DNA from: an uncultured Methanosarcinales archaeon
Lineage (GTDB): Archaea > Nanobdellota > Nanobdellia > Woesearchaeales > CAYSVS01
DNA: 64,000 nucleotides
Direction of reading: 5' to 3'
Assembly (NCBI GenBank): GCA_964434475.1
Contig: CAYSVS010000002.1
Span: 7,604-71,603, forward strand
Position 1 is the first letter of the stretch; every line of letters starts with the position of its first letter. Shown here in pieces: positions 15,870-62,803 of this stretch. Both the position numbers and the translations under genes were made by a program. Below the pieces are notes generated by a model that saw nothing but the letters and a program-made list of their open reading frames with translations, had not been told where the DNA came from and did not search any database.

Positions 15870-15879
15870 GGAGAAAAAA

Positions 15880-17472: not shown

Positions 17473-17473
17473 A

Positions 17474-17704
17474 ATGACATATAGCAATTTTAAGAAAGAA
17501 ATCAAGCAACTGAAGGTCAAGCCTGCAAAGCTAAAAAAATACATAAAACATAATGCACCTAAAAAAAGAAGCTGCGGGACAGCTACAAGAAGATGCAAGA
17601 GATGCGGCAGGATAAGAGGACACATAAGAAAATATGGATTAGGGCTGTGCAGGCAGTGTTTCAGGGATATTGCCACAAGAATAGGATTCAAAAAATACGG
17701 ATGA
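17474..17704 (+). CDS. rps14: 30S ribosomal protein S14 (uS14, zinc-binding type)
   Basis: A CxxC…CxxC zinc ribbon is present ([13 protein letters not shown]…CRQCFRD). Confidence 0.9.
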
Positions 17705-17713
17705 GGTAAAAAA

Positions 17714-18103: not shown

Positions 18104-18104
18104 A

Positions 18105-19240: not shown

Positions 19241-19241
19241 A

Positions 19242-20242: not shown

Positions 20243-20244
20243 AA

Positions 20245-35039: not shown

Positions 35040-35061
35040 TTTTTTTCTTTTAAAACCAAAA

Positions 35062-37688: not shown

Positions 37689-37834
37689 CAGAGAAATAAT
37701 AATATTAATATGCTTAAAAAATAAAAAATCCCAACGCAGCAAAATCAAGTTTTTTACCGAAAAGCTTATATATTGTATAAAATGAATAATTAAGTGACAA
37801 TAATTATAATTGATTATAAAAAGAGAGCGTTAAG

Positions 37835-38758: not shown

Positions 38759-38771
38759 AAGGTGATAAAAA

Positions 38772-39728: not shown

Positions 39729-39744
39729 GAATAAATATTTTTTT

Positions 39745-41061: not shown

Positions 41062-41153
41062 ATTTAAGACCTCTTTTTTATAATATATAGTATCCACTAT
41101 TTATTAATCTTTTGATAATTTTAGAATGATAAACAAGTTTTTTGATAATTGCA

Positions 41154-47240: not shown

Positions 47241-47741
47241 ATGAAAAAGAGGTTAAGCGATAAAATAAATAAAAATAACATAGATCTTGATAGTTTAAAT
47301 TCTGAAAATATAATAAAATTGCTTCTTGAGAAGATTTCTGAAACAAAAAAAAGTAGAGGGTTGATAGAAAAAAGAAAAAATATCCCTTTGTCTGTATTCA
47401 AAAATAAAAAATTAGGCATCCTTGAAGCCATAGTTAAATATCTAAAAGAAGAATGCAAGTACAAATACAGCAAGATAGCAAAAATACTTAACAGAGACGA
47501 TAGGACAATATGGACGACATACAATAATGCGAAGAAAAGAAGCAAAAAACCATTGTATATAAAAGAAAGCGATTTTGATATCCCTGTTGAAATATTTTCT
47601 AAGAAAAAATACAGCGCATTAGAAAGCATGTCTGTTTACTTAAGAGACAAGTTTGAACTAGGATATACAGATATCGGAAAAATGCTTGGAAGAAATCCTA
47701 AAACAATCTGGACAACATACAAAAGAGCAAAGAAAAAATGA
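47241..47741 (+). CDS. small basic protein with tandem duplicated HTH (sigma-70 region-4/LuxR-like) modules
   Basis: Two internal repeats carry similar cores: IAKILNRDDRTIWTTYNNAKKRSKK and IGKMLGRNPKTIWTTYKRAKKK. The stop codon overlaps the start of the giant gene (ATGA at 47738-47741). Confidence 0.6.
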   Translation: MKKRLSDKINKNNIDLDSLNSENIIKLLLEKISETKKSRGLIEKRKNIPLSVFKNKKLGILEAIVKYLKEECKYKYSKIAKILNRDDRTIWTTYNNAKKRSKKPLYIKESDFDIPVEIFSKKKYSALESMSVYLRDKFELGYTDIGKMLGRNPKTIWTTYKRAKKK

Positions 47742-50700
47742 ATGAAAAGCTGATGGAAGGACTGAGCATAATTGTTTTGCTAGTTGTCAGTTTAGTATTA
47801 GGATTAAGCGTCAATTATGAAGATAACATAACAGGATTCAGTATTGCAAACTTTGAAAACACATATATGGCGAATGATTCGATAAACATCAATACAGATT
47901 TTAAATTTAATTGCTTTGACATGAACAATACAAAGATATTGGTTGAATTCAACAACAATACAGAGATATACCATATTGAAGAGTTAGAGCACAGTGCAGT
48001 TTATGATAAAACATATGTATTGAACATAAAGGTTAAGTTGGATAATCCTGAACAGATAGGAGAGTATCTGCTAAAGATAAAAGCTACTAGCGACAATGAA
48101 ACGCACAATCTTGAAAAGAAGATACTCATAATGAATAAGACCAATCTTATAGAGATAGAAAAAGAAGCAAGCAATTCTACAGATATCGAAACTAATGAAA
48201 CAAATGTTGTAGAAATAAATGAAACAGAAAAGAAAACAGATATTGAAAATGTCATAAACGAAACACAAATATCAAATCAAACAGAAGCACATAATGATTT
48301 GGCAACAGATGATACAATGCATCAGGATAATAATGAAACAGGAAATATTACAATAAGGATTAACCAAAGCCAAACAAACACAGAAGGAAATGAGCATATG
48401 GATGATGCGTTTAATGAAACAAACATCACAAAGAATATTAAACAAACGCAAAAATATGAAACATTCACATTACAGAGCAAGGAAGGTAAAGACATAGGGG
48501 TTTTTGAGATAAGTGCAAAAGATTCGAAGTATAACTTAAAGATATATGAAGTCGCGAAAAATTCAACAATTCAAGCAGAAGCTACAATAAAGGGGATGAA
48601 AGACATACCTATAGTAAAGACGAAAATAGGCAGAATAAATGAAAAGCACATAAAAACAAAAGTGTTTGCTATAGAGCATATAAAGATACAGGAAGCTGAA
48701 ATAATTCTTCCTAAGACAGGATATGTAGATACAATCTATAGATGCAACAATTTTGATATCGATATCTTCGAATGTGAGGAGGAATGGCAAAAGACAAATA
48801 TAGAGTTCGAAGATCTTGAAAATAGAATAAAATTTACTGTTGATCATTTCAGCGCTTATGCTGGCGGAATAGGTTATGATTCAAGACTGTACATATACGA
48901 TGATACTGACTTTGAGATAAAACAGGTTGAAGAGAATATTTTGTTCTATGCCAACTATACCAACTCAAGTAACCAGACAATATTAGATTCTAATTGCACA
49001 ATAGAATTCAACATTACAGGCAACTGGGAAGGATTATCTAATATGCATTATAATGAGTCTTTGGAATTATGGTTTTTTAACAGAAGCTTTAACGCGTCAG
49101 GAGAAAATCAGTTCAATGTAAGCTGCACTTCCAGTTATGATAATTTAAGTGCGATAGATAGCATCACTATCTACAATGACCATTCAGGACCATATTGGAC
49201 AGAGAATAAGACAAACTTCGAAGGAGTTTCGACATATGAAAAAGATAAAGAGTATATGTTCAATGTTACGTGGAATGATGCAAATGATATAAATGAAGTA
49301 ATTATAGAACATGATTTCAACAGCAGCGTGCACAACTATTCTGTAAATAACATAGGAAATGAATACTATTACACATATACAGGATTAAAGACAGGAACAT
49401 ATAATTGGAAAGAGTATGCATATGACATATTAGGTAATCTTAACTCAACTGATGAATGGCAGTTTGAAATAGTAAAAGCCGAACCTGTGTTGAATTTAAC
49501 TTTGAACAGAATACAAGGAAATGTTTTGGTTAATGAAAATCAAAACTTAAACATTAATGCTTATTGTCAAGAGCCGCATAATGAATATGTGGAATTGTAT
49601 CTTAATGATAGTTTGATAAACAAAGGAACAGGAATATTAAGCAACACAACATCATTTGCAAACGCAGGATTGCATAATTCAACAATAAGGTATCTTGGCA
49701 ATGAAAATTATACTTCAGCAAATATAACATATAATATAAGTGTGAATTCTCAGCCATACATTGATCCGGCAGTACCTAATGTTTCAATATACAGAGATTA
49801 TGGAGATTATGAAATCAATCTTACACATTATGAAAATGATCTTGAAGATTCAGCAGAAAATCTCAGTTGGAGCATAGGGTACATAAACAACAGCTTATTA
49901 CAATACATATTTAATGAGGATGTATTGACGCTGACAACTGTTTCAGCAGCTCATGGAGTAGATAAGCTGGAATTAATATTGACAGACAGCAATGGATTAA
50001 ATGATACGCAGAATATAACTGTATTTATACCTTCAATAGAGCTGCATTCAGAGATAGGAGAATTGTTCATAATAGTTAATAATACGAATTCAACCAGTAT
50101 AATATTGAATGTTACTGATTATTATGCTGATGTTAATTTAACTGTAAACAACAGCAAATGCTCATTAGACAATTATAGTCTAGTAAATTTCATAGGAAAA
50201 AAAGACATAAACTTATCATGTAACTTCAACTACAGCCAAAACATAAGCGAGTATGTATTGATAGATACAAACAAAAGCAACAACCTGACAATAAAGATAA
50301 CTCCTGTTGAACCAAGGTTTAATCTTGAACAGATAAGCGGATACAATATAGTTTCAGGAGGAAGCTTTGATAATTCAATTATGTTGAATGTTTCCTATGT
50401 TTTTGCATTAGATGTAAACAATACAATAGATTGTCCAAATAATTGGGGATGTAATGTTAGTCCAGAGCATTATGCTAAACTAGAGATAGGAAATTATGGA
50501 ATCAATTATTCAATCATAGTGCCCGATGATGAATCTGCAGGAAATTATAGGATAAATTACAGCACATATGACCAATACGGAAGAAAAGAAGATAATTTAT
50601 TTTATGTCAATGTTTCGCAAACACCATTCATCTTTGTTGAAAAGAATAATTTAAGCGCTTATGTTGATATCTGCGAAGATATAGAATATAATATCTATTT

Positions 50701-53700
50701 TGAGAACAATGATCTTGTTAACCTAGACAACATAACAATAATAGATTATCTACCTAGTGATCTTGAGTTTAATTCGTGGAGTACGGAAAACAACAGAACT
50801 ATTGTCGATATGTACAATACAAACTCAAGGATAGTATGGAACAAGAGCAGCATGGAGATAGGAGAAAATATAAGCATAAGCTTGAACTTAACAGCCAACT
50901 GCAGTGCTTATGGTTATAATATCAACAAGGCAAACATAACATATTATTGGAATACTACATCAGGAGCAAGAAGGAATAAAACAACAGAAATCGAAGCACA
51001 CAGAGTTTATGTCAATAAACCAAAGATTGAGCTAGAGATTGTTCCAGATCAAACATTGAAAAATCTCAATCAAACAATAACATGGACATTGAGAATAAGA
51101 AACACAGGAAATGCAACAGCTTACAACATAAACATAAGCTATCTTACAGAGCAAGGTTTTGAATATATAAGTTTCTCGGATATGAGCAACATAAGCAACA
51201 GTAAACCAGGATATGGAGTTGACAATAATCATTCTATACTGTGGATTGCAAACATAACTAAAGGAGATGAATGGACAGCAGAAGTATATGCAAATCCTAA
51301 GTACTGCGATGAAAATTTATTGGATTCTAACTTAAGCGTAAAAGATATCTGCGGATGTGATGAGTTTGATAAACATCTTGAAAGCAATATTAGTTTAAGA
51401 AAAATAATAATTAACAAGACAACAAAGAAAACCGAGTTAGGAATTGGTGAACTTAACACATACACAATCGAAGCACTGGTTTGCGGCGAATATAAAAATT
51501 TGACAATAACAGATAGTTTTCCCAATCTTTTGAATTTTACTAAGAATGATAGTTATGTTGATGATAATGATATAAACATAACAACAATAAAAACAGACAG
51601 AAACTTCAGATGGACACTAAAAAATCACACAGGAAACATGAAGAGCCTTGAAAAATATGTTCACATTAGACTAAACATAAGCCAATACCCTAATAATCTA
51701 TCAAATGACAATGACGAGATAACCAACAATGCAACACTATTGTACTACAATTCTTCAGAGGATGAATCTGATAAATTCTATGAAACAGGAACAAGCGCAG
51801 GAGAAACAAGCATAAGCCAATCTACTATTACAGTATATGAGCCAGATGTACAAATAAGTGTTGAGACTTTGAAAGATACATGGAACATAAGCGATGAACT
51901 GCATGTGAATATTACATTAGTAAATATAGGAAACAATGATGCTTATAATCTGACTATCAACAGCTCGTATGTTGATGGTTTGGAACTGATAAATTCGAGC
52001 TATGAGATGGATTATAATGATACGGAGTTGTTTAGTTGGAAGATAGGCAAACTTGAACAAGCGCAGCAGTTCAGCATAATAGTGAATTATCTAGTCAATG
52101 AAACTTACAAAGATGCAAGAAGAGTGTTAGCTGATGATTATTTAGGAATAGATGCAGATATTGAATACTACAGTTATTACCTCGATAATGAACATAATGC
52201 TGTTCCAAGAGAATATTATGATCAAGACAATAAGCAGATAAAAATAGACAGAGCATATCTTAATTTTGATACTGACAAAATAGTTGCAGCGATAGGAGAA
52301 AAGATAACATATGACATAACAGCAGACTTCAGCAAAGTATATGCTAATGATGCACATATAATAAATAAGATTCCTTTTGGAACAGAATTTATCAGATATA
52401 CTAACTCAAGCTATATGGATCTGACTGTTGATATGAACAGATTGATATTCAATCTTACTAACATTACGGAAAGGAAAAAGATAAATCTAAGCATAGAAGT
52501 TTATGTTAATTCTTCTGCATACGACGGACAAAACTTGATAAATTATGTTAACTTAACATATCAAAACAGCACAGATGATGAGTTTGTCATTCAACATAGT
52601 TCTACTGTAACAGTAAGAGAACCATTCATAGACATAATAAAAGAATTGATGAGCAGCCAAGAAATAAAGATAGGAGATGTTGTTGAATACAATATTACAA
52701 TAATCAATAATGGACTATATGATGGATATAATGTTACTATGCAAGAGAACATATCTGACGGACTGATACTTAATTCATCTTCTCCTGCTTATGATTCTAA
52801 AAACGGAAACATATTAGTATGGCATTACAGCAAATTCCAAAAACAGACAACCAAGAACATATTGCTTAATCTTACAGTCAACAGGACATACAAAAGTGGC
52901 GAGTATGTTAGTGCAAATGATGTTTTCAATAATCATGTTGATATAAATTATTATGGCTTCAATTCAACAATAGCAGAAGAGTATAATGCAACAGTAAATG
53001 CGTATTATAATGAAACATATTCTGATAACAAGGTAGAACTGATAAAACCTCGAATATATGTATTTAGAGACAAGACAAACGCAACAATAGGAGAAAATGT
53101 CAGCTATAATATAGTATTGAATTTCACAGAAACAGCAGGCAATTATGTTGAGCTTAATAACACGCTTGATCAAGGGTTTGTGCTGATAAATGCAACGAAT
53201 AATCCTAGCTATAACGGAAGAAATCTGCTGTGGAGTTTTGGCAATATATCCTTACAAAGAATAGAGATAAACTACTCAGTATATATCAATGATACTTCTA
53301 TAAACGAAAAAGGAAGGAATGTTGAACAAAAGTTTGACTTGAAATATGAAAGCCATAATCTTACTAAACATTATCTAAACAATAAAACATACATTGAGAT
53401 AAAAGAGCCTAATGTTACAATATTTAAACAGCTTATGAGCGATCCTAATTCAGGGATAGGAGAAGTTATAGAATACAATATAACCATAGTCAATCGAGGA
53501 AATTCGGATGCGTTCAATGTTACAATAAAAGATAGGATTCCTAATGGAACATATTACAATACATCTAATCCTGGCTTTGTTAAGGAAGAAAATAAATATC
53601 TGCTTTGGAACTATTCAAGACTAGATGCAGGAGATTATAGGACAATCTTATTGAATTTCACTATAAACAACAGCTATGATGACAGAAGCATTGTCAATTC

Positions 53701-56700
53701 AGGAGACATATTCGGCAACAGCGTAAATATGACATACTATAGCTACAATTATACTCTTGCAAATCCTTACAAAGGAAAAACAAGAAAGTATTACATAGGA
53801 ACCAACAGCGATGCTTTTGTCATAATATCGCCTGAATTCGGAAAAATTACTTCGCCATTGAAGACTATTGCAGGAATAGGAGAGAATATCAACTATGTCA
53901 TAAATGTAAATTATACTGCAGGTGCTAACAATGTTACAGTCAATGACCTATTGCCCGATAATATTGTTCTTGTAAATTATAGCTTTGAAGATAATGCGAC
54001 AACAGATAACAAAACAATACAATGGAACTTTGGAAGAGTTGGAGAGATAAGGCAGGATAATATCAACATAAGAACTTATGTGAATGATTCTAGCTCAGTA
54101 TATGATGGAATAGAGATAGAAAAGAATTATGCTAACCTTACATATATAGGAGAAAACAATACAGTGTACAATCTTTCGTCTTTAAGCAATACAGTTACAG
54201 TGAGAGAACCTAATGTAAACTTGAGCATAGTGTTGATAGGAAACAAGCATCTGAAAATAAAGGATAATGTTGAGTATAAAATATCAATAGAGAATATAGG
54301 GAACTATGCTGCATATAATGTTACTTTACATGACAAGATTCCAGACGGATTATTTTACAATAGTTCAAACATAGGATATAAGGCATTTGAAGATAATATA
54401 TTAGAGTACAATTATCCAAAAATATCTGCAGGAACAGTTAAAAATATTTTGCTGAACTTAACCATAAATGGAACATATGCAGACGGAAATTTAGTGAGTT
54501 CAAACGACAGCATATATGACTCTATCAATACAACATACTATAGCTTTAACCAGACAAAAGCAAAAGAATACGGAGGCATAGTGAGAGAATATTTTAACTC
54601 AAGCTATTCTGAAAACATAAGCTTGATTGCACCTACAATAGAGAAATATGTTAATTCAAGTTTTGGTTATGAAGGAGATATTATCAAATATGTCATAGAA
54701 GTTAACGCAAGCAATGGGTTAAGAAATTTTACTGTTGAAGATAATCTGCCAGAAGGTTTGACTTATGTAAATGATACCAGGCACATTTATTCTAGTTTGG
54801 ATGGAAACAATATAACATGGGAATTTGGAGATGTTCCTAATCAGTTTACATATATCAACATCACTGTAAACATAAGCTCAAGTCCAGATCAAGGAGATGG
54901 AGTATATATAGACAATAATACTGCAACGATATATTACATGAACTCTAACAAGAAAGTATTCAGTCTAAATTCAACAAGCAGCAGGACAGAGATGAATGTG
55001 CCTCCTGAACAGATCAATCTGACATCTCCAGTAGATGAGCATAATACAACTAATAGACAGCCAAGCTTTGACTGGGGTGATTCAAATGATTTAGACATAG
55101 TAGATTCAATAAAGTACTATCTTGAAATATCAAATTCAAGCTGTTTTGAATATTTGTATGCTGATCAGAATACGACACTATCAGAATATACATTGACAGG
55201 AGTGCAGAGTTTAAGTGATGGACAATATTATTGGAGAGTCAAGATATGCGATGATTCTTTAAAGCTAAACAACTGCAGTTATTCTTATGAAAACTTCACA
55301 TTTAGAGTTGATAATGGAGCTCCTGAAATAACAATACATGAGCCTGATGAAGATGAAGTTGTAGCTTGGTTAGTTTACTTTATAGCTAACGCCACAGATA
55401 ATCTGACACATACAGATAAAGTATGGTACACAATAAGCAACAATACATTGATGCAGCAAGGTTTCCTAAACATGTCAAACAGTTGGGAAGCAGTATGGAA
55501 TACTGCAAATATTGTAAGTAATTCAACTGACATAAACCATTTCAATTTTACAGTTTATGCTAATGACACATTGGACAATACAGCAAATAAGACAATTGCA
55601 TTTGTTGTTGATAACAGAAACCCAGGATTACAAATAATATCTCCAGATAAGACCTACCATAATGCAAATATTGGTTTGGATATAAGGCTGAGCAATGAAC
55701 ATCTTAACAAAAGCTGGTTTGAGATAAATTATAGCAGCAGAGCATTGCTGATTTCAAATAATACAGAGATAGGGAAACCTAGGTTCAATTGGACACAACA
55801 AATAGATCTTAGCATAGAGGATAATTACACATTAACTGTTTATGCAGAGGATGAAGTAGGGAATAACATAACTAAGCAAACATGGTTTGTGTATGATACA
55901 AGTGCACCAAACCATCAATTATTTAGAAGTCCTATTCCTGCCTATACTACAGATAATATAACATTATCTGTAATAGTCAATGACAATTATAATATTGATA
56001 CTGTTTACATAACACATAATGCATCTGGAACATATGAAAATCATAGTGTGCAGATCAGCGGAAACAATTATTCAAGAATAATATACCATAATGAAACAAG
56101 CAACCAAGAAAACATAGGATGGTATACTTGGATAAACGACAGCGCCAAGAATGTTAACATATCAAGCATCGAGGCTATAAAAATAGAGAACAGAGTACCT
56201 GTATTCAGTCCTTTGTTAAGCAATAAGATAGCGCAGGAGGATCAAGAGTTTAGATACAATATAAATGCAACAGATTATGATTATGAAGACAGCATAAACT
56301 ATACGACCAATGCAACAGAGTTTATGATAAATAAAAATACAGGATTAATTAATTGGACTCCGACAAATGAGGATGTGGGAGTATTGGTCGTCAATGTTAC
56401 AATATGCGATAATAGCACTGCAGCTGCATATTGTAATTCAAGTGTGTTTAACATTACTGTGAATAATACCAACGATGCGCCTTATGCAGTAAGTTTGGGA
56501 CTGCCTGAAAACAATTCAATTACAAATGATCCTAATCCTTATTTCAACTGGAGCGTTGCAAATGACGTTGATGCAGGAGATAGTTTAACCTATTATTTGA
56601 TTTTAGACAATAACAGTGATTTTAGTTCTGTTGAGTTGATACAAAACACAACAAATAATTTGTATGGATTGACAAATTCACAGAACCTATCAAACGATCA

Positions 56701-59700
56701 ATGGTATTGGCGTGTAAGAACTTGTGACGACAGCTATTCTACGAATAATTGCACATATTCTGCAGAAAACTTTACTTTTACAATAGATGAAAGTACAAGC
56801 ATAGTTACACTGACTGAGCCCATAGATGGCCATAATGCCACCAAAAATAATATGACATTTATCTGCAATGTTACAGATAATTATGGACTAAAGAACATAA
56901 CTTTATTTGCAAATATCACTGGATGGAACAAGTTTGGATCAACTAATATATCTGGTAAGAAAAATTCTTCTGTATTTGTTGTTACAAACATATCAGATGG
57001 ATCATATGTATGGAACTGCCTTGCTTATGATATGGCGGGCAACTATAATTGGGCGCTGAGCAACAATACATTTAGGATAGATACTAATGCGCCTAATATA
57101 ACATACTATTATCCTTCAAATGGCGCAAGTTTAGGATATACAACAACAAAAGTTGAAGCAGAGATAAGGACTGATGAATTGTCTGTATGCTGGTATAATT
57201 TTACAAATAAAAGTTTTGTATATTCACAAGGAAATAATTTCAATGACAGCTATAGATACAATCACAGCCTAAATATTAGCATTAGCCAAGGACAAAGCTA
57301 CAGCATCTATTATCTATGCAATGATAGTTACGGCAACCTAAACAATGAGTCTTATGTGCATAGTTTCTCTGTACAGACGCAGCCAGATGATCCAAGCGGA
57401 GGAGGGGAAGAAGAACCGCCTGCTGAACCAGAATGCACAGCAAGCTGGGAGTGCACAGCTTGGAGTCCTGCAATATGTCCTCCAAGCGGAATACAGACAA
57501 GATCTTGTACATGTTCATGTCCAGGAGGAACTGGGTGTACAGGAGATTATAGTACATCAAGAACTTGCGTATACACGCCAACATGCGATGATGGAATAAA
57601 GAATCAGGATGAAACAGATGTAGATTGCGGAGGAAGCTGTCTGGGATGCAGCACAGGAAAGCAGTGCAGCCAGCAGACAGATTGTTTATCAGGGTTATGC
57701 GTAAGTAATGTATGCAGAGAAGTAGGATGCTTCAACAATATCAAAGATGGAGATGAAACAGATATAGATTGCGGTGGAAGCTGCAGTAAATGCGCGGTGA
57801 ATAAAGCATGTTCAAGCAAAAGCGACTGTTTGTCAAATTTATGTATCAATAATATATGTAAAAATCCTTCTTGCACAGACAGCTTAAAAAACCAGGATGA
57901 AACTGATATAGATTGTGGAGGAAATATTTGTTCAGGATGTGCAGTAGACAAGAACTGCAATGCTAATTCAGACTGCCAAAGCAATTATTGCATAGGAGGA
58001 AAATGCAAGATAGCTTCGTGTTCAGATGGTTTGATGAATCAGGATGAGACAGATGTAGACTGCGGAGGAAGCATATGCGGAAAGTGCAGCATAGGCAAAG
58101 AATGCCTGATAGATCCTGATTGTATCAATAACAACTGCGTTTTAGGACAATGTGTTGAAGTAAGCTGTGATGATGGAATACAAAATGGAGATGAAACAGA
58201 TGTAGATTGCGGAGGAGTATGTGGAAAGTGCAGAATAGGAAGTAGCTGTGCTTTGGATAGCGATTGCGAGAATAATAATTGCTTATCAAACGTATGTGCT
58301 GCAGAGAATTGCGATGACAATATAAAGAACGGAGATGAAACAGATGTAGATTGCGGAGGAAGCTGTCCTAGATGCGATACAGGAAAATCTTGTTCTGTTA
58401 ATTCTGATTGCTCCAGCAACAGCTGCATAGACAACATATGCGGAGCTCCAAACTGTGAAGATAATTCCAAGAATCAGGATGAGACAGATGTAGACTGTGG
58501 AGGAAGCTGCTATGCTTGCGAGGATGGCAAGCAATGTTCTGTAAATTCAGATTGTGCTAGCTTGTTCTGTAAAGAAAATGTTTGCAGACAAGCTTCATGC
58601 ACAGACACTATAATTAACCAGGACGAAACAGATGTAGATTGCGGAGGACCTTGTCAAGGTTGTACTGCAGGAAAGAATTGTATGGTTGATAGCGACTGTA
58701 TAAGCAAATATTGCGTCGCAGGAATGTGCGAAACAGCAAGCTGCACTGACGGTGTGCTCAACGGAGATGAAGAAGGCATAGACTGCGGAGGAAGCTGTCC
58801 AGCGTGTGCTAGCTGTGATGATGGGATCAAGAACGGAGATGAAAAAGGAATAGATTGCGGAGGAAGCTGCCCAGCGTGCTTCTTGGAATGTAGCGATGGA
58901 ACACAGGCAGGAAAATGCTCTGTTGAAAAGCCAAAATATTGTACATTGGATGAGGCTTTGGTGTTTGATTGCGAAAATTGCGGATGTCCTAATACAGGAG
59001 ATGTTTGTCAAGCTGATGGAAAATGCAGAGGAATAGGTAGCTGTTCAGACAGAATACAGAACCAAGGCGAAACAGGAGTGGATTGCGGCGGACCTTGTAA
59101 AGCGTGTGAAGCTACTTGTTTTGATGGATTAAAAAATCAAGGCGAAACAGGAGTAGATTGCGGAGGACCTTGCGAACCTTGCGCTAAAGAGCCTTTGCTT
59201 GAAAAACCAGGGCAATTTGAATTTGATGAAATACAAAGCTATGAATTTATGTTATATGAAAATGATATGCAAGAGTTTGAGATAGACAATATTAAACATA
59301 CAGTGCATGTATCAAAAGTTTATCTGGATAGTGCTGATCTAATAATAAGTTCTGACCCTATAAAGGTTAATGTTAAACTTGGAAAAGAAAGTTATGTAGA
59401 TATTGACGGAGATAATATTTATGATATTAGATTATTAATAAAAGATATAGCAGACAAAGGAATAAGCCTAAAGATAACTGTGCTTGAAGAAAGGATAACT
59501 GCTGCACAAAGAATAAGGCAGTTGTTGGGTCTTGAGGAGAGAGAAAGTTCCATTATACCTCAGGACATAAACATAGATAATATGCCTTGTCTCAAGGATC
59601 CTAAATCCAGCCAAAACAAGATTTCTGTTTTTGGTTCTGATTTTAAGTTTGATACACCTATAGGTTATGATGTCCTGATTGATGGTTTCAATATAATGTG

Positions 59701-62700
59701 CAATAATGGCGCAACAAATTTGACACTGACAATACCTAAGAATTACGCAGATATTTTCGCCTTGGATAAAAACGGAAATAGGATAAAATTGGCAAGCACT
59801 GGCTTGAAATGCGGAGAAGAGTTTGAGGAATTTGCAAAAGATGAAATGTTTGTAAGGGAGTATGAAGATTTTGAAGTTGCAGGAAATATTGATGAAAACA
59901 ATAAAAATATCAATCATGAATATTATGATTTTGAATTCATTACAGATGATAAATTTAAGGTTGTTTTGAAAAAACCAAAAGATCCAGTTTTAGAGCCTAA
60001 AAATAATCTTTTGAAGATAAGCGGAAAAGCCATTGCATTGCATATAGATAAAAAAATAGTATCTGGAAATCTAAAGATAGCCTTGCCTTTGGTAAAAGAT
60101 GAAAAGATAGAAGAAGGAAGCTATAATGTTTATGTTATGGTTCCTGGTCAGCAATGGAAGTTGTTGGAAAGTGATGAATATGAAAAGATAATAAGTTCTA
60201 GATTAAATAACCTTAGCAGTTACATAAACAGAAATAATGAGATTGTTTTGGCTGTAATAGGTAAGATATGCGCTAACTGTAAGTACAGCACACTAAAAAA
60301 AGCGTATGATCCTGGCAATACAAGAGATGCATTGCTGATGATACATGGATTAGGAAGCTCGCCAAAAACATTTGAGAATGTGCTTAAGGATATAAGGATG
60401 ACTAACCAGCCATGGCAGGCTTGGACTTACGGATATCCTACAGAAAAGAGCGTTAGTAAAAATGCGATTGAGCTTGCACACCATCTTGAAGCAAATGCAG
60501 ATGAATTTGATTATATGTATATTGCAGCGCACAGCATGGGCGGACTAGTAGTAAGAGAAGCGTTGTATTATAGCTATCTTGTAAATAAGGAAAAACCAGG
60601 AACATTCAAGTATTTGGATAAGATCAAGAAAGTAATACTTATTAGTGTTCCGAATAAAGGGAGCCCTGGCGCAGAGTTCTTATTAGGATTATCTCAATAC
60701 CTGACAAACGACAAATCAGACACAGCAATAGTGAATCTGGATAGCAAAGGCGTGCAAGATCTTATCAATGGTACAGAGACACCTATGGTGTCTGGAATAA
60801 AGTATTATGTTATTGCTGGAACAAAAAGCTATGAATTCGGAAAAAGCATATTAAGGGTTGAGTTGTTTGAACAAAACGTAACAAACGACGGACTTGTTTC
60901 TGTAGATAGTGCACAAAAAGTAGGGGGGGCTGTACTTGATGATGAGTGTGAAAACTATTGGGAAATATATGAGACACATACAGAAATATTAGATAATCCT
61001 ATATCACGAAGATTAGTAGAAAAGATAGTAGCTGAAGAGATAGCTAAAGGAATAAAAAACACTGCAATATTAGGAAATATAGTCTATTATGATCTGCCTA
61101 TCAAATGCGGAGAGGATTATGTTGTTCTTGGCAAGAAAGTTAATCCAAATAAACAGTATGATCCAACAGGATGCTTATGCGGAAATGGATACTGCGGCGA
61201 AGGAGAGGATAAAGAGAATTGCGCAATAGACTGCGATACTTTATTGAATAAAGAGAATATATGTAAAAGTTCGCCATTTGCAATATTATTGCTTATTGTT
61301 GTTATGCTGATAATAGGAGCCCCTTATGTTTATGAAAAATATATCAGACGCTTGAGATTTGCAACAGTTTTGAAAAACAGGATGGTATGCTGCTTTGTGT
61401 GGACAGCATATATTATTGCTGCTGTCAATCTTATGCTGTTCTTGTATTATAAGCAGTTTTGTATCAGCTATTATAGTGTGGGGCTGGGTAAGAATATGCT
61501 AATAGCTTTAGGCATGTTGATTGTTGTATTGTTAATATATGATTGGTTCATATATAAGTTTAGGAAAGAAGAGAAGAAGCTTGAGAAAGAGTTCAAGTTT
61601 ATGAGTAATATTGCAAGATTGTTTAGACTCCATGTTAAGTTGATGTTATGGATAGTTTGGATATTGATAGTTATAGGTTATGCTGCAGGAATGATGGTTG
61701 TGTTTAACATCAGTGAAGAGTTATTTGCAAATCTGTTGTTCAATGTTATATTGGTGATATTGACGTTTGTAGCTGTAAATACCTTGAACTTCTTTGTTTA
61801 CGAAGAAAGGAAGATAGTTACAGGATTGGAGAAGAAAGAGAAAGAGATAGAGAAATTGGAAAGATTTGAAGAAAAAGAGATCAAGAAAGAGAAGAAGAAG
61901 ATATGGGAATTGGAGTTTAAGGAATTGTTTAAGTCCAAAAAAGAAGTCAAGAGATTGAAATCTTTAGAAAAAGCAAGGAAAGCCAGGTTTAAAAAACTGA
62001 AGAAAAAAGAAAGGAGAGAGAAGATAAGAATATTCAAGATAAGGGTTAGGAAGGTCAAGGACAGGCTTTTGCATAAATTAGGTTTAAAATATACTATAAA
62101 GGAAAAGGAAAGGCTGTTTAAGAAAGAAAGATTAAAGAATTTAGAAAAAGCTAGAAGGGTTAAGAAAAGGAAAGCGAAAATAAAAAATATGAACAAATAC
62201 CTCAACAAACTAAAAAACAAGATTAAAAGGTATTTCAAGAAAGAATTGAAAGAGGTTAATGAAGATTACAAAGAATGGTATGAAAAAGAACTGCGTAAAA
62301 TTGAAAGAGAGAAAATCAGAAGGATGGTAAGAGCAAAGAAATGGTATAAATTCTTAAGAAAGATTGGATTGTACCATACCAAAAAAGATAAGCAGATGTT
62401 GTTAGATAAGAAGAGATTGAAAAGTTTAGAAAAAGCAAGAAGAGTTAAGAAATTTAATTCTATAATTAAAAAATTGCATAAAAGAAAGCTAAAACCTCTA
62501 GAGAAAGCAAGAAAAGCCAGGAAGAGGAAAGCAGAGCTTAATAGGATTAAAAGAAAAATCAATAAGTTGAAACAAAAAATAATCAAAAGTTTTGGAAAAA
62601 TAAAGATAAAGCCAAGCTGGAAAACAAAAGAAAGGCTGGCTAAATTAGGATTATACAGCAAAAGAAAGATTATTGAACATAATGAAAGAGTGGAAAGAGC

Positions 62701-62803
62701 AAAGATTGTGAAACTCATGAAGAAAGATAAGAAAAAAAGGAAAAGAGAAGCTGATAAAGAATATGATGATCTAAAGTATGGAGAGCAGACAGATTGGGAG
62801 TAA
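47738..62803 (+). CDS. giant (5,021 aa) multidomain cell-surface protein with embedded lipase-like hydrolase domain and C-terminal 5-TM anchor
   Basis: A single uninterrupted 15,066-nt ORF. An N-terminal hydrophobic signal or anchor (LSIIVLLVVSLVLGLSV) is followed by an Asn-rich region dense in N-x-S/T sequons. Next come DUF11-like β-sandwich repeats, FN3-like and cadherin-like domains, 8 full and about 5 half Cys-rich repeats, an α/β-hydrolase domain (IHGLGSS, AHSMGG), five C-terminal TM helices and a K/R-rich repeat tail. Confidence 0.85.
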   Translation: MNEKLMEGLSIIVLLVVSLVLGLSVNYEDNITGFSIANFENTYMANDSININTDFKFNCFDMNNTKILVEFNNNTEIYHIEELEHSAVYDKTYVLNIKVKLDNPEQIGEYLLKIKATSDNETHNLEKKILIMNKTNLIEIEKEASNSTDIETNETNVVEINETEKKTDIENVINETQISNQTEAHNDLATDDTMHQDNNETGNITIRINQSQTNTEGNEHMDDAFNETNITKNIKQTQKYETFTLQSKEGKDIGVFEISAKDSKYNLKIYEVAKNSTIQAEATIKGMKDIPIVKTKIGRINEKHIKTKVFAIEHIKIQEAEIILPKTGYVDTIYRCNNFDIDIFECEEEWQKTNIEFEDLENRIKFTVDHFSAYAGGIGYDSRLYIYDDTDFEIKQVEENILFYANYTNSSNQTILDSNCTIEFNITGNWEGLSNMHYNESLELWFFNRSFNASGENQFNVSCTSSYDNLSAIDSITIYNDHSGPYWTENKTNFEGVSTYEKDKEYMFNVTWNDANDINEVIIEHDFNSSVHNYSVNNIGNEYYYTYTGLKTGTYNWKEYAYDILGNLNSTDEWQFEIVKAEPVLNLTLNRIQGNVLVNENQNLNINAYCQEPHNEYVELYLNDSLINKGTGILSNTTSFANAGLHNSTIRYLGNENYTSANITYNISVNSQPYIDPAVPNVSIYRDYGDYEINLTHYENDLEDSAENLSWSIGYINNSLLQYIFNEDVLTLTTVSAAHGVDKLELILTDSNGLNDTQNITVFIPSIELHSEIGELFIIVNNTNSTSIILNVTDYYADVNLTVNNSKCSLDNYSLVNFIGKKDINLSCNFNYSQNISEYVLIDTNKSNNLTIKITPVEPRFNLEQISGYNIVSGGSFDNSIMLNVSYVFALDVNNTIDCPNNWGCNVSPEHYAKLEIGNYGINYSIIVPDDESAGNYRINYSTYDQYGRKEDNLFYVNVSQTPFIFVEKNNLSAYVDICEDIEYNIYFENNDLVNLDNITIIDYLPSDLEFNSWSTENNRTIVDMYNTNSRIVWNKSSMEIGENISISLNLTANCSAYGYNINKANITYYWNTTSGARRNKTTEIEAHRVYVNKPKIELEIVPDQTLKNLNQTITWTLRIRNTGNATAYNINISYLTEQGFEYISFSDMSNISNSKPGYGVDNNHSILWIANITKGDEWTAEVYANPKYCDENLLDSNLSVKDICGCDEFDKHLESNISLRKIIINKTTKKTELGIGELNTYTIEALVCGEYKNLTITDSFPNLLNFTKNDSYVDDNDINITTIKTDRNFRWTLKNHTGNMKSLEKYVHIRLNISQYPNNLSNDNDEITNNATLLYYNSSEDESDKFYETGTSAGETSISQSTITVYEPDVQISVETLKDTWNISDELHVNITLVNIGNNDAYNLTINSSYVDGLELINSSYEMDYNDTELFSWKIGKLEQAQQFSIIVNYLVNETYKDARRVLADDYLGIDADIEYYSYYLDNEHNAVPREYYDQDNKQIKIDRAYLNFDTDKIVAAIGEKITYDITADFSKVYANDAHIINKIPFGTEFIRYTNSSYMDLTVDMNRLIFNLTNITERKKINLSIEVYVNSSAYDGQNLINYVNLTYQNSTDDEFVIQHSSTVTVREPFIDIIKELMSSQEIKIGDVVEYNITIINNGLYDGYNVTMQENISDGLILNSSSPAYDSKNGNILVWHYSKFQKQTTKNILLNLTVNRTYKSGEYVSANDVFNNHVDINYYGFNSTIAEEYNATVNAYYNETYSDNKVELIKPRIYVFRDKTNATIGENVSYNIVLNFTETAGNYVELNNTLDQGFVLINATNNPSYNGRNLLWSFGNISLQRIEINYSVYINDTSINEKGRNVEQKFDLKYESHNLTKHYLNNKTYIEIKEPNVTIFKQLMSDPNSGIGEVIEYNITIVNRGNSDAFNVTIKDRIPNGTYYNTSNPGFVKEENKYLLWNYSRLDAGDYRTILLNFTINNSYDDRSIVNSGDIFGNSVNMTYYSYNYTLANPYKGKTRKYYIGTNSDAFVIISPEFGKITSPLKTIAGIGENINYVINVNYTAGANNVTVNDLLPDNIVLVNYSFEDNATTDNKTIQWNFGRVGEIRQDNINIRTYVNDSSSVYDGIEIEKNYANLTYIGENNTVYNLSSLSNTVTVREPNVNLSIVLIGNKHLKIKDNVEYKISIENIGNYAAYNVTLHDKIPDGLFYNSSNIGYKAFEDNILEYNYPKISAGTVKNILLNLTINGTYADGNLVSSNDSIYDSINTTYYSFNQTKAKEYGGIVREYFNSSYSENISLIAPTIEKYVNSSFGYEGDIIKYVIEVNASNGLRNFTVEDNLPEGLTYVNDTRHIYSSLDGNNITWEFGDVPNQFTYINITVNISSSPDQGDGVYIDNNTATIYYMNSNKKVFSLNSTSSRTEMNVPPEQINLTSPVDEHNTTNRQPSFDWGDSNDLDIVDSIKYYLEISNSSCFEYLYADQNTTLSEYTLTGVQSLSDGQYYWRVKICDDSLKLNNCSYSYENFTFRVDNGAPEITIHEPDEDEVVAWLVYFIANATDNLTHTDKVWYTISNNTLMQQGFLNMSNSWEAVWNTANIVSNSTDINHFNFTVYANDTLDNTANKTIAFVVDNRNPGLQIISPDKTYHNANIGLDIRLSNEHLNKSWFEINYSSRALLISNNTEIGKPRFNWTQQIDLSIEDNYTLTVYAEDEVGNNITKQTWFVYDTSAPNHQLFRSPIPAYTTDNITLSVIVNDNYNIDTVYITHNASGTYENHSVQISGNNYSRIIYHNETSNQENIGWYTWINDSAKNVNISSIEAIKIENRVPVFSPLLSNKIAQEDQEFRYNINATDYDYEDSINYTTNATEFMINKNTGLINWTPTNEDVGVLVVNVTICDNSTAAAYCNSSVFNITVNNTNDAPYAVSLGLPENNSITNDPNPYFNWSVANDVDAGDSLTYYLILDNNSDFSSVELIQNTTNNLYGLTNSQNLSNDQWYWRVRTCDDSYSTNNCTYSAENFTFTIDESTSIVTLTEPIDGHNATKNNMTFICNVTDNYGLKNITLFANITGWNKFGSTNISGKKNSSVFVVTNISDGSYVWNCLAYDMAGNYNWALSNNTFRIDTNAPNITYYYPSNGASLGYTTTKVEAEIRTDELSVCWYNFTNKSFVYSQGNNFNDSYRYNHSLNISISQGQSYSIYYLCNDSYGNLNNESYVHSFSVQTQPDDPSGGGEEEPPAEPECTASWECTAWSPAICPPSGIQTRSCTCSCPGGTGCTGDYSTSRTCVYTPTCDDGIKNQDETDVDCGGSCLGCSTGKQCSQQTDCLSGLCVSNVCREVGCFNNIKDGDETDIDCGGSCSKCAVNKACSSKSDCLSNLCINNICKNPSCTDSLKNQDETDIDCGGNICSGCAVDKNCNANSDCQSNYCIGGKCKIASCSDGLMNQDETDVDCGGSICGKCSIGKECLIDPDCINNNCVLGQCVEVSCDDGIQNGDETDVDCGGVCGKCRIGSSCALDSDCENNNCLSNVCAAENCDDNIKNGDETDVDCGGSCPRCDTGKSCSVNSDCSSNSCIDNICGAPNCEDNSKNQDETDVDCGGSCYACEDGKQCSVNSDCASLFCKENVCRQASCTDTIINQDETDVDCGGPCQGCTAGKNCMVDSDCISKYCVAGMCETASCTDGVLNGDEEGIDCGGSCPACASCDDGIKNGDEKGIDCGGSCPACFLECSDGTQAGKCSVEKPKYCTLDEALVFDCENCGCPNTGDVCQADGKCRGIGSCSDRIQNQGETGVDCGGPCKACEATCFDGLKNQGETGVDCGGPCEPCAKEPLLEKPGQFEFDEIQSYEFMLYENDMQEFEIDNIKHTVHVSKVYLDSADLIISSDPIKVNVKLGKESYVDIDGDNIYDIRLLIKDIADKGISLKITVLEERITAAQRIRQLLGLEERESSIIPQDINIDNMPCLKDPKSSQNKISVFGSDFKFDTPIGYDVLIDGFNIMCNNGATNLTLTIPKNYADIFALDKNGNRIKLASTGLKCGEEFEEFAKDEMFVREYEDFEVAGNIDENNKNINHEYYDFEFITDDKFKVVLKKPKDPVLEPKNNLLKISGKAIALHIDKKIVSGNLKIALPLVKDEKIEEGSYNVYVMVPGQQWKLLESDEYEKIISSRLNNLSSYINRNNEIVLAVIGKICANCKYSTLKKAYDPGNTRDALLMIHGLGSSPKTFENVLKDIRMTNQPWQAWTYGYPTEKSVSKNAIELAHHLEANADEFDYMYIAAHSMGGLVVREALYYSYLVNKEKPGTFKYLDKIKKVILISVPNKGSPGAEFLLGLSQYLTNDKSDTAIVNLDSKGVQDLINGTETPMVSGIKYYVIAGTKSYEFGKSILRVELFEQNVTNDGLVSVDSAQKVGGAVLDDECENYWEIYETHTEILDNPISRRLVEKIVAEEIAKGIKNTAILGNIVYYDLPIKCGEDYVVLGKKVNPNKQYDPTGCLCGNGYCGEGEDKENCAIDCDTLLNKENICKSSPFAILLLIVVMLIIGAPYVYEKYIRRLRFATVLKNRMVCCFVWTAYIIAAVNLMLFLYYKQFCISYYSVGLGKNMLIALGMLIVVLLIYDWFIYKFRKEEKKLEKEFKFMSNIARLFRLHVKLMLWIVWILIVIGYAAGMMVVFNISEELFANLLFNVILVILTFVAVNTLNFFVYEERKIVTGLEKKEKEIEKLERFEEKEIKKEKKKIWELEFKELFKSKKEVKRLKSLEKARKARFKKLKKKERREKIRIFKIRVRKVKDRLLHKLGLKYTIKEKERLFKKERLKNLEKARRVKKRKAKIKNMNKYLNKLKNKIKRYFKKELKEVNEDYKEWYEKELRKIEREKIRRMVRAKKWYKFLRKIGLYHTKKDKQMLLDKKRLKSLEKARRVKKFNSIIKKLHKRKLKPLEKARKARKRKAELNRIKRKINKLKQKIIKSFGKIKIKPSWKTKERLAKLGLYSKRKIIEHNERVERAKIVKLMKKDKKKRKREADKEYDDLKYGEQTDWE
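57580..59200 (+). repeat. in-frame tandem array of ~48-aa (144-nt) cysteine-rich repeats within the giant gene
   Basis: The repeat consensus is C-x-D-x-I/L-K-N-G/Q-D-E-T-D-V/I-D-C-G-G-S-C-x-x-C-x-x-G-K-x-C-x-x-x-S-D-C-x-S-N-x-C-x-x-x-x-C, with 8 Cys per full unit. There are eight full units and about five 24-aa half units. The periodicity is visible at the DNA level. Confidence 0.85.
60300..61000 (+). other. lipase-class α/β-hydrolase domain inside the giant protein (aa ~4190-4420)
   Basis: It has an oxyanion-hole HG box (LLMIHGLGSS) and a nucleophile elbow AHSMGG (GxSxG). A downstream candidate catalytic Asp (TNDGLVSVDS) and His (YETHTEIL) follow. The order and spacing resemble Bacillus LipA-type (Lipase_2/PGAP1-like) enzymes. 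Confidence 0.75.
61250..62803 (+). other. C-terminal 5-TM membrane anchor and cytoplasmic K/R/E-rich repeat tail of the giant protein
   Basis: Five hydrophobic helices are present: FAILLLIVVMLIIGAPYVY, MVCCFVWTAYIIAAVNLMLFLYY, MLIALGMLIVVLLIYDWFIY, LMLWIVWILIVIGYAAGMMVVF and LLFNVILVILTFVAVNTLNFFVY. A roughly 330-aa tail follows, with reiterated KLGL-Y…RLK-S/N-LEKARRVKK units. Confidence 0.7.

What the first reader, a model, noticed from the sequence alone, without database searches (positions are those of the whole stretch)
60300..61000. Bacillus LipA-like lipase/esterase domain with intact catalytic motifs embedded in the extracellular part of the giant protein
The segment carries motifs in the order and spacing of small class-2 triacylglycerol lipases: HG oxyanion motif IHGLGSS, nucleophile elbow A-H-S-M-G-G, then Asp (NDGLVSVDS) and His (ETHTEIL) candidates about 115 and 140 residues later. 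As far as I recall, AHSMGG is the Bacillus subtilis LipA elbow itself. An active lipid hydrolase displayed on a giant adhesin suggests enzymatic action on a partner cell's membrane lipids or on environmental lipids. This would be an unusual mechanism for an archaeal symbiont.
Basis: partly seen in the sequence, partly recalled or inferred. Interest (0 to 1): 0.8.

Follow-up and report, generated by a model that had tools for sequence, protein, structure and literature searches.

The report
Serine hydrolase at giant adhesin's base
A 5,021-residue surface protein of a Woesearchaeota-type (DPANN) archaeon carries an intact esterase/lipase-type serine hydrolase domain just outside its membrane anchor, and the same hydrolase-plus-anchor unit recurs in well over a hundred related giant proteins, so it is a conserved lineage-specific module of still unknown substrate and not a one-off Bacillus-like lipase.

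Summary

The "LipA-like" label is only loosely right. The elbow is identical, but homology to B. subtilis LipA covers the N-terminal half only (hhalign 84%). Triad spacing is +118/+148 against +56/+79 in LipA. Pfam Lipase_2 matches 6 of 35 relatives, while DUF676 and DUF7379 each match 32 of 35.

The domain is not a free decoration. It is the centre of a roughly 600-aa unit: a beta-sandwich, the hydrolase, a Cys motif and transmembrane helices. This unit is found in 184 protein clusters, all beneath variable adhesin ectodomains. Nearly all labelled genomes are Woesearchaeota or Nanoarchaeia. The first membrane helix starts about 45 residues after the end of the conserved hydrolase block (about 75 after the catalytic core), so the enzyme probably acts at the archaeon's own surface or a tight contact zone.

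The substrate is unknown. I rate it a new variant of a known kind, of moderate interest.

The parts
47738..62803 (+). Giant ORF, 5,021 aa. Order: N-terminal signal/anchor (aa 5-23), adhesin-type ectodomain, conserved base module, 5 TM helices, basic cytoplasmic tail.
   Evidence: ORF list and translation. Pfam finds DUF11 in 8 stretches, DUF7507 and He_PIG. An identical 5,021-aa protein is in the public collection (P0008).
59543..60244 (+). Conserved all-beta domain (aa ~3936-4169) directly N-terminal to the hydrolase. It has a GAIN_B/ZU5-like beta-sandwich fold and lacks the canonical H-x-S/T cleavage motif.
60305..61057 (+). Alpha/beta-hydrolase catalytic domain (aa ~4190-4440).
60344..60349 (+). 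His4203-Gly4204 oxyanion-hole motif (IHGLGSS).
   Evidence: It follows strand 33-38 of the model. His is kept in 95% and Gly in 98% of 117 relatives.
60524..60544 (+). Nucleophile elbow A-A-H-S-M-G-G, with Ser4266 as the predicted nucleophile.
   Evidence: Ser is model residue 102, between strand 95-101 and helix 103-121. Ser is kept in 113 of 117, His4265 in 112 of 117 and Gly4268 in 117 of 117.
60884..60892 (+). N-D-G, with Asp4384 as the predicted catalytic acid.
   Evidence: Asp is kept in 117 of 117 relatives. It is also invariant in the small stand-alone homologues.
60974..60982 (+). T-H-T, with His4414 as the predicted catalytic base.
   Evidence: His is kept in 116 of 117. It lies after strand 243-246 and before the C-terminal helix 257-272 of the model.
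61058..61252 (+). Linker plus Cys motif C-x-C-G-N-G-x-C-x3-E-x4-C-[PA]-x-D-C (aa ~4441-4505).
   Evidence: Cys4457, 4479, 4481, 4486, 4495 and 4499 are 96-98% conserved. No Pfam match.
61277..61777 (+). Five predicted TM helices (aa 4514-4680).
   Evidence: Hydropathy scan. Lys+Arg counts in the four inter-helix loops are 6/2/10/0, with 2 in the stretch before the first helix. This places the hydrolase outside and the tail inside.
61805..62800 (+). Cytoplasmic tail (aa 4690-5021). It is 41% Lys+Arg and has four L-x-x-LEKAR-[KR] repeats.
   Evidence: Composition and repeats. The tail is not conserved among relatives.

Best explanation
The segment encodes a catalytically competent serine carboxylic-ester hydrolase of the esterase/lipase type, with an alpha/beta-hydrolase fold. 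It uses Ser4266 on an A-H-S-M-G-G elbow, Asp4384, His4414 and an HG oxyanion hole.

It belongs to a Woesearchaeota/Nanoarchaeia-specific subfamily of the DUF676 / PGAP1-like / DUF7379 group of alpha/beta-hydrolases. It is not a member of the Bacillus LipA family.

It is the middle of a conserved membrane-proximal base module of about 600 aa: a GAIN/ZU5-like beta-sandwich, the hydrolase, a Cys motif and TM helices. This module carries interchangeable adhesin ectodomains (DUF11, Big_9, cadherin-like, beta-helix, LamG, LVIVD) in many large surface proteins.

The enzyme is held about 75 residues from the lipid bilayer. It therefore most likely deacylates ester-linked substrates within a few nanometres of the archaeon's own surface. 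These could be lipids or acylated envelope components of the archaeon itself, or of a partner cell once the adhesin has drawn the two envelopes into tight contact.

Shown here: the fold, the triad and its conservation, the topology, the module architecture and the taxonomic range. Inferred: that the enzyme is active, that the bond cleaved is a carboxylic ester, and where it acts. Unknown: the substrate.
For: - Catalytic residues lie at the canonical secondary-structure positions. They are kept in 113 of 117 representatives at 50% identity, with Asp in 117 of 117.
- Family: 184 representative clusters at E<1e-30. Among the 150 best listed, almost all that extend past the domain have a first TM helix starting 34-90 residues after the end of the conserved hydrolase block.
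- The conserved block spans aa ~3930-4530.
- Ectodomains vary between relatives.
- Pfam affinities over 35 members: DUF7379 32, DUF676 32, PGAP1 22, Lipase_2 6.
- Topology follows the positive-inside pattern.
- Taxonomy: of 21 GTDB loci, 14 are labelled Woesearchaeota, Nanoarchaeia or Nanoarchaeota. Six co-assembly MAGs are labelled 'Methanosarcinales' and one 'Peribacteria'. The window's TyrRS is 75-80% identical to Woesearchaeota/Nanoarchaeia proteins.
Against: - There is no biochemical evidence.
- The window's own sequence reaches only the DUF676 gathering score exactly (20.3 bits) and stays below that of DUF7379, so family placement is loose.
- Four of 117 relatives have Ser replaced by Gly yet keep the module, so the module can persist without catalysis.
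- If the partner is an archaeon with ether lipids, a carboxylesterase would have no core-lipid substrate.
Confidence: 0.6

Rival explanations
1. One reading: a Bacillus LipA-like triacylglycerol lipase or phospholipase is displayed on the adhesin to attack the membrane lipids of a partner cell. The purpose would be permeabilisation or lipid scavenging by a lipid-auxotrophic symbiont.
For: - The elbow AHSMGG is identical to that of LipA, and the HG-type oxyanion motif is similar.
- The N-terminal half is homologous to LipA (hhalign 84%, E 7e-6).
- The top structural neighbours are true lipases.
- One relative weakly matches the T6SS Tle3 phospholipase model.
- Castelle et al. 2021 (PMC8204110) argue that some Woesearchaeota and Pacearchaeota may be episymbionts of bacteria, whose lipids are ester-linked.
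Against: - The domain sits at the base of the protein, about 75 residues from its own membrane and under about 3,900 residues of ectodomain. This position is fixed across the family.
- LipA-family membership fails: Lipase_2 matches 6 of 35 relatives and does not match the window sequence. LipA chains score E about 0.85 with the family profile. Triad spacing is +118/+148 against +56/+79.
- The host is unknown.
- No paper in the library links DPANN, lipase and surface proteins.
Confidence: 0.2
2. The hydrolase is a processing enzyme working with the adjacent GAIN/ZU5-like domain. It would cleave or release the giant ectodomain (peptidase or esterase action in cis). Alternatively it would be unmasked when force strips the ectodomain, by analogy with adhesion-GPCR GAIN and microbial MAIN domains.
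For: - The order beta-sandwich, hydrolase, TM is invariant across the family.
- MAIN domains were recently reported in bacteria and archaea between ectodomain and anchor (bioRxiv 10.64898/2026.05.12.724683).
- The last strand reads F-A-V-M-G, reminiscent of the GAIN tethered peptide (the GAIN comparison is from my own knowledge).
- BlEst2, the nearest structure, is deposited in propeptide and mature forms. The depositors' entry title attributes inhibition to its C-terminal domains (cited in PMC10816834).
Against: - No sequence-level match to GAIN, ZU5 or any other family.
- The H-x-S/T catalytic motif of GAIN/MAIN is not conserved.
- In reported MAIN proteins the enzymes lie N-terminal to the MAIN domain, not between it and the anchor.
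- The hydrolase's structural neighbours are esterases and lipases, not peptidases.
Confidence: 0.08
3. The domain is mainly structural: a rigid spacer or pseudoenzyme that forms the foot of the adhesin, and catalysis is irrelevant.
For: Four of 117 relatives have the nucleophile Ser replaced by Gly, one of them also with His replaced by Gln, yet keep the whole module. The module is conserved as a block together with non-catalytic parts.
Against: Ser is kept in 113 of 117, Asp in 117 of 117, His in 116 of 117 and the HG motif in 95-98% of representatives that are only 32-50% identical overall. Such retention is not expected without selection on catalysis.
Confidence: 0.07

Closest known systems
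BlEst2, Bacillus licheniformis lipase/esterase (PDB 6WPX propeptide form, 6WPY mature form)
   Different: Identity is only 18-20%. BlEst2 is a soluble bacterial enzyme whose extra domains are C-terminal. Here the beta-sandwich is N-terminal, and the enzyme is fused to a Cys motif and TM helices inside a 5,021-aa archaeal protein.
Bacillus subtilis LipA (family I.4 lipase; Pfam Lipase_2, PF01674; PDB 1I6W)
   Different: The C-terminal half does not align. The spacing is Ser+118 and Ser+148 against +56 and +79, because of a cap insertion of about 60 residues. Lipase_2 does not match the window sequence and matches only 6 of 35 relatives. LipA is a lid-less, secreted 181-aa enzyme.
DUF676 (PF05057) / PGAP1-like (PF07819) / DUF7379 (PF24096) alpha/beta-hydrolases, including small membrane-anchored homologues P0002-P0007
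   Same: These are the best Pfam affinities: DUF7379 and DUF676 each match 32 of 35 relatives, and PGAP1 matches 22 of 35. They share the motifs HG, [AT]HSMGG, P-N-x-G-S, [NG]-D-G-x-V-[ST]-V and T/S-H. Like PGAP1-type enzymes (from my own knowledge), the domain sits next to a membrane anchor on the non-cytoplasmic side.
   Different: The window sequence only just reaches the DUF676 cut-off and misses the DUF7379 and PGAP1 cut-offs. The stand-alone homologues are 23-38% identical, 214-354 aa long, and lack the beta-sandwich, the Cys motif and the giant ectodomain.
MAIN/GAIN-domain surface proteins (Brogan and Rudner, bioRxiv 10.64898/2026.05.12.724683) and adhesion GPCRs
   Same: The overall logic is shared: a signal peptide, a long adhesive ectodomain, a juxtamembrane GAIN_B/ZU5-like beta-sandwich and an anchor (here multi-pass TM plus a cytoplasmic tail).

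Membership tests
Alpha/beta-hydrolase fold serine hydrolases | Central parallel beta-sheet flanked by helices (alpha/beta-hydrolase fold) | tested here: met
   [not shown]
Alpha/beta-hydrolase fold serine hydrolases | Nucleophile on a sharp elbow (small-x-Ser-x-small) after strand beta5; acid after beta7; His after beta8 | tested here: met
   Ser4266 lies between strand 95-101 and helix 103-121. Asp4384 and His4414 are in loops after later strands. Conservation is 97%, 100% and 99%.
Alpha/beta-hydrolase fold serine hydrolases | Ser-His-Asp side chains within hydrogen-bonding distance | not testable with these tools
   The tools do not return model coordinates. Only secondary structure and pLDDT are available.
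Alpha/beta-hydrolase fold serine hydrolases | Hydrolytic activity | not testable with these tools
   This needs an enzyme assay.
Bacillus LipA / Pfam Lipase_2 (family I.4 lipases) | Significant match to the Lipase_2 profile or to LipA itself | tested here: not met
   The window domain has no Lipase_2 hit at E<=1. Six of 35 relatives match. phmmer finds no LipA chain, and the family profile gives E about 0.85 to LipA chains 3d2c and 3qmm.
Bacillus LipA / Pfam Lipase_2 (family I.4 lipases) | A-x-S-x-G elbow (AHSMG) | tested here: met
   AAHSMGG at aa 4263-4269. AHSMGG is at Ser77 of 1i6w_A.
Bacillus LipA / Pfam Lipase_2 (family I.4 lipases) | Minimal lid-less domain of about 180 aa with Asp and His about 56 and 79 residues after Ser | tested here: not met
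   Here the spacing is +118 and +148. hhalign aligns only the first 99 columns.
Pfam DUF676 (putative serine esterase) | Score at or above the gathering cut-off (20.3 bits) | tested here: inconclusive
   The window domain scores 20.3 bits, exactly the cut-off, over 68 residues around the elbow. 32 of 35 relatives match at E<=0.01.
Pfam DUF7379 | Score at or above the gathering cut-off (33 bits) | tested here: not met
   The window domain scores 23.2 bits. 32 of 35 relatives match at E<=0.01. Of the twelve full-length relatives scanned individually, one (P0017, 35.1 bits) passes the cut-off.
PGAP1-like (PF07819) | Score at or above the gathering cut-off (24.3 bits) | tested here: not met
   The window domain scores 11.6 bits. 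22 of 35 relatives match weakly.
GAIN / MAIN autoproteolytic domains (for the adjacent upstream domain) | GAIN_B-type beta-sandwich fold | tested here: inconclusive
   [not shown]
GAIN / MAIN autoproteolytic domains (for the adjacent upstream domain) | Conserved H-x-S/T cleavage motif in the turn before the last strand | tested here: not met
   In the alignment of 127 junctions, the turn reads [DE]-x-N-N-[EK]-[AV]-[TV]-[FL]-A-x-[MI]-G with no conserved His.

The most novel reading that the evidence does not exclude
The roughly 600-aa base module may be an archaeal contact- or force-sensing device and not merely an anchored enzyme. Its parts are a GAIN/ZU5-like beta-sandwich without the canonical cleavage motif, an intact serine hydrolase, a Cys motif, multi-pass TM helices and a basic cytoplasmic tail. 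In the closer relatives the giant gene overlaps the end of a small upstream gene for a sigma-70-region-4-like HTH protein, an arrangement that suggests translational coupling.

Under this reading, binding by the variable adhesin tip would expose or activate the membrane-proximal hydrolase, or lead to release of the ectodomain. That event would be relayed through the TM and tail region to the HTH partner. It would functionally parallel adhesion GPCRs and the bacterial MAIN and SEAL systems, but with a hydrolase in place of autoproteolysis.
Probability: 0.1. Interest if true: 0.85.

Novelty: new variant of a known kind. Interest (0 to 1): 0.5.

Why it matters
Woesearchaeota-type DPANN archaea are uncultured. 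They are presumed to be symbionts with reduced metabolism, and how they touch and exploit partner cells is unknown.

This work gives three concrete handles on that question:

1. **An experimental target.** One catalytically intact esterase/lipase-type enzyme is built into the foot of many of their largest surface proteins. That offers a defined domain to express, an S4266A control, and activity-based probes that could label these cells in situ.
2. **A sequence marker.** The conserved module identifies this class of giant adhesins in metagenomes. Those proteins otherwise have no function prediction beyond generic repeats.
3. **A revised picture.** The idea of a "lipase on a stalk reaching the host membrane" becomes "an enzyme at the archaeal surface or contact zone". 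That changes which substrates to test: lipids of the archaeon itself or of a tightly apposed partner, and acylated envelope glycans or proteins.

Tried and rejected
- **Direct LipA membership.** phmmer of the domain against the PDB found no lipase A (best hit 7x2p, E 0.82). The family profile reaches LipA only at E about 0.85. I rejected membership and kept a remote superfamily relation.
- **NCBIfam.** The scan gave nothing relevant.
- **Homologue search.** The word-indexed search found only 7 homologues. The exhaustive representative search was needed to reveal the family.
- **GTDB scan.** The scan with the 35-sequence alignment failed for lack of a conserved stretch. I repeated it with 4 close sequences. 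That sampling is therefore narrow, and copy numbers per genome are lower bounds.
- **Source contig.** The exact-contig look-up for the window's protein returned nothing, so I did not retrieve the source record. I inferred the lineage from TyrRS homologues.
- **Second copy.** tblastn found no second copy of the domain in the window.
- **RNA genes.** No tRNA or Rfam hits in the window.
- **Upstream beta-sandwich.** No Pfam or PDB sequence match at E<=1 to 10. I tested and rejected canonical GAIN/MAIN autoproteolysis for lack of the H-x-S/T motif.
- **Literature.** Searches for DPANN plus PGAP1, lipase plus host membrane, and lipase plus surface proteins returned no papers. The library is incomplete, so this is not proof of novelty.
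- **Triad geometry.** I could not measure it, because model coordinates are not exposed.
Full report
**1. The observation**

The window contains one uninterrupted ORF, 47738-62803 on the + strand, of 5,021 aa.

| Motif | Residues | Window nt |
|---|---|---|
| IHGLGSS | aa 4202-4208 | 60341-60361 |
| AAHSMGG (Ser4266) | aa 4263-4269 | 60524-60544 |
| NDGLVSVDS (Asp4384) | aa 4383-4391 | 60884-60910 |
| ETHTEIL (His4414) | aa 4412-4418 | 60971-60991 |

. Asp lies 118 residues and His 148 residues after Ser.

**2. Is it a real alpha/beta-hydrolase?**

On its own the sequence is only weakly recognised. Pfam gives DUF7379 at 23 bits (cut-off 33), DUF676 at 20.3 bits (exactly the cut-off), and traces of DUF900 and PGAP1. 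There is no Lipase_2 hit. NCBIfam gives nothing useful, and phmmer against PDB sequences finds nothing significant.

An exhaustive HMMER scan of 1.84 billion representative proteins changed the picture. It returned 449 hits at E<=1e-3, and 184 at E<=1e-30.

I built a 35-sequence alignment of the domain (A2). An AlphaFold2 model from it has mean pLDDT 83.4 and pTM 0.83, with the alternating strand and helix pattern of an alpha/beta-hydrolase.
- Foldseek ranks BlEst2 first (E 5e-10), followed mostly by family I lipases from Proteus, Pseudomonas, Acinetobacter, Burkholderia and Geobacillus.
- The family profile hits BlEst2 in PDB sequences at E 1.3e-9. The HG, elbow, P-x-x-G-S and N-D-G segments are all aligned.

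In the model, Ser4266 (model residue 102) sits between strand 95-101 and helix 103-121, which is the nucleophile elbow. His-Gly 4203-4204 follows strand 33-38. His4414 lies between strand 243-246 and the C-terminal helix. I could not measure triad distances, because coordinates are not returned.

**3. Conservation**

I aligned 117 near-full-length representatives, each from a different 50%-identity cluster and 32-50% identical to the query. Conservation at the key positions is as follows:

| Position | Kept in |
|---|---|
| Ser4266 | 113 of 117 |
| Asp4384 | 117 of 117 |
| His4414 | 116 of 117 |
| His4203 | 111 of 117 |
| Gly4204 | 115 of 117 |
| Gly4268 | 117 of 117 |

Four members have Ser replaced by Gly, and one of them also has His replaced by Gln. 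This pattern argues for selection on catalysis in most members, with occasional pseudoenzymes.

**4. Relation to Bacillus LipA**

I confirmed that the sequence I recalled for B. subtilis LipA is identical to 1i6w_A. It does contain AHSMGG, with Ser77, Asp133 and His156. Profile-to-sequence hhalign of A2 against LipA gives 84% probability, E 7e-6 and 25% identity. That alignment covers only 99 columns, from the HG motif to the strand after the elbow.

The C-terminal half does not align. About 60 extra residues, a cap with two helices and a low-confidence loop, separate strand beta6 from the Asp. Lipase_2 matches 6 of 35 relatives, whereas DUF7379 and DUF676 each match 32 and PGAP1 matches 22.

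So the domain is a remote superfamily relative of LipA with a coincidentally identical elbow. It is not a class-2 lipase. Its nearest characterised relative is BlEst2. Its nearest sequence families are the poorly characterised DUF676, PGAP1-like and DUF7379 hydrolases. These include small membrane-anchored proteins that share the motifs HG, [AT]HSMGG, PNxGS, [NG]DGxV[ST]V and [ST]H.

**5. Context inside the protein**

The N-terminus has a hydrophobic signal or anchor (aa 5-23). Five hydrophobic helices follow the domain at aa 4514-4680. The 13 residues before the first helix carry 2 Lys+Arg, the four loops between helices carry 6, 2, 10 and 0, and the 331-aa tail is 41% Lys+Arg. By the positive-inside rule, the hydrolase is outside the cell and the tail is inside.

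Nine cysteines in and after the domain are 93-98% conserved, which is consistent with an extracellular, disulfide-bonded unit. The rest of the ectodomain holds adhesin-type repeats: DUF11 in 8 stretches, DUF7507 and He_PIG. It also holds twelve Cys-rich repeats, mostly about 48 aa apart.

**6. The domain is part of a conserved base module**

In this protein and in the other representatives whose anchor is on record, the conserved hydrolase block ends 34-90 residues (mostly 38-53) before the first C-terminal TM helix. Total protein length ranges from about 500 to 7,646 aa.

I mapped the similarity of the whole giant protein onto the 155 relatives. A conserved block runs from about aa 3930 to 4530. 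Everything N-terminal of it and the cytoplasmic tail are essentially unshared.

Relatives carry different ectodomains: Big_9 and cadherin-like, LVIVD, right-handed beta-helix or NosD, and LamG. The hydrolase is therefore the core of a reusable foot on which varied adhesive tips are mounted. Some genomes carry two or more such genes, and one locus has two of them in tandem.

**7. Organism**

A GTDB species-representative scan found 21 loci. Fourteen are labelled Candidatus Woesearchaeota, Nanoarchaeia or Nanoarchaeota. Six co-assembly MAGs are labelled 'Methanosarcinales', and one of these is a 774-kb chromosome. One is labelled 'Peribacteria'. The closest named homologue is from a Woesearchaeota MAG. 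The window's tyrosyl-tRNA synthetase is 75-80% identical to Woesearchaeota and Nanoarchaeia proteins. The 'archaeal symbiont' premise is thus reasonable for lineage. The symbiotic lifestyle is inferred from the literature (PMC8204110).

**8. Mechanism**

What is shown is an intact, conserved, extracellular, membrane-proximal serine-hydrolase domain of esterase/lipase type. I infer that it hydrolyses carboxylic esters. The basis is its nearest structural and profile relatives, its HG-type oxyanion motif and its small-x-Ser-x-small elbow.

The catalytic core ends near aa 4440 and the first TM helix starts at aa 4514. The active site must therefore lie within a few nanometres of the archaeon's own membrane, beneath roughly 3,900 residues of ectodomain. 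This geometry disfavours action on a partner membrane at a distance. It favours substrates at the cell's own surface, or in a tight contact zone formed after the adhesin has bound.

Castelle et al. proposed that some Woesearchaeota and Pacearchaeota may attach to bacteria (PMC8204110). If so, ester-linked bacterial lipids or acylated wall polymers would be available substrates. If the partner is an archaeon, core ether lipids would not be. The substrate remains open.

**9. The neighbouring domain**

The conserved roughly 235 residues upstream of the hydrolase have no Pfam or PDB sequence match. An AF2 model (pLDDT 80-97 for aa 4039-4171, lower before that) is all-beta.

A 2026 preprint reports that GAIN-like 'MAIN' domains occur in bacteria and archaea between ectodomain and anchor, and that they self-cleave at an H-x-S/T motif (10.64898/2026.05.12.724683). 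In an alignment of 127 junctions from this family, that motif is absent. The turn reads [DE]-x-N-N-[EK]-[AV]-[TV] before a hydrophobic last strand [FL]-A-x-[MI]-G, followed by C-x-x-C. The fold resemblance is a lead. Canonical membership fails.

**10. Verdict**

I found no paper in the searchable library describing this module. NCBI labels a fragment simply 'esterase/lipase family protein'. I classify it as a new variant of a known kind, with moderate interest.

Noticed in passing
[not shown]
   Followed up: partly
window 47241-47741 (+), overlapping the giant ORF start by 4 nt: A 166-aa protein has two tandem HTH units matching Sigma70_r4_2 and HTH_23. A homologous small gene (39% identity, E 4e-29) overlaps the start of the related giant gene in L026, and a Sigma70_r4_2-like gene does the same in the P0036 locus. 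No such gene is present in L023-L025. This may be a partner-gene association.
   Followed up: partly
window 57545-59182 (aa ~3270-3815): The motif DCGG occurs twelve times in Cys-rich repeats of the pattern C-x-D-G-x-x-N-x-D-E-T-D-V-D-C-G-G-x-C-x-x-C, mostly about 48 aa apart (three intervals of 24, 25 and 76 aa). The region holds roughly 95 cysteines in about 550 residues. No Pfam match at E<=0.01.
   Followed up: no
window 47738-57490 versus 57490-62803: N-x-S/T sequons are very dense (12-21 per 250 aa) through aa ~3250. They then drop to 0-2 per 250 aa for the rest of the protein, including the base module. Heavy N-glycosylation, if it occurs, would be confined to the distal ectodomain.
   Followed up: no
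window 61805-62800 (aa 4690-5021): The cytoplasmic tail is 41% Lys+Arg and 15% Asp+Glu, with four copies of L-[KN]-[SNP]-LEKAR-[KR]. It is not conserved in relatives, whose tails vary from 0 to about 930 aa.
   Followed up: no
window 61172-61234 (aa 4479-4499): The juxtamembrane motif C-x-C-G-N-G-x-C-x3-E-x4-C-[PA]-x-D-C is 96-98% conserved across the family and has no Pfam model.
   Followed up: no
L023 (JBGPOY010000001.1) 2501-20348: Two family members (5,115 aa and 2,937 aa), each with its own hydrolase module, lie head-to-tail with a 4-nt overlap. In L025 a stand-alone 262-aa Abhydrolase_1 gene directly follows the 7,646-aa member.
   Followed up: no
window 44437-47070: A pair of TldD/PmbA-family metallopeptidase genes lies just upstream of the HTH and giant-gene pair. 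No tRNA or Rfam RNA was found anywhere in the 64 kb. Six of the ten upstream ORFs scanned (33837-41097) have no Pfam match.
   Followed up: no
L001, L007, L015-L018, L021 (GTDB records): Several MAGs carrying this DPANN-type module are labelled 'uncultured Methanosarcinales archaeon', one of them a 774-kb chromosome. One other MAG is labelled 'Candidatus Peribacteria bacterium'. These are probably mislabelled records or mis-binned contigs.
   Followed up: no
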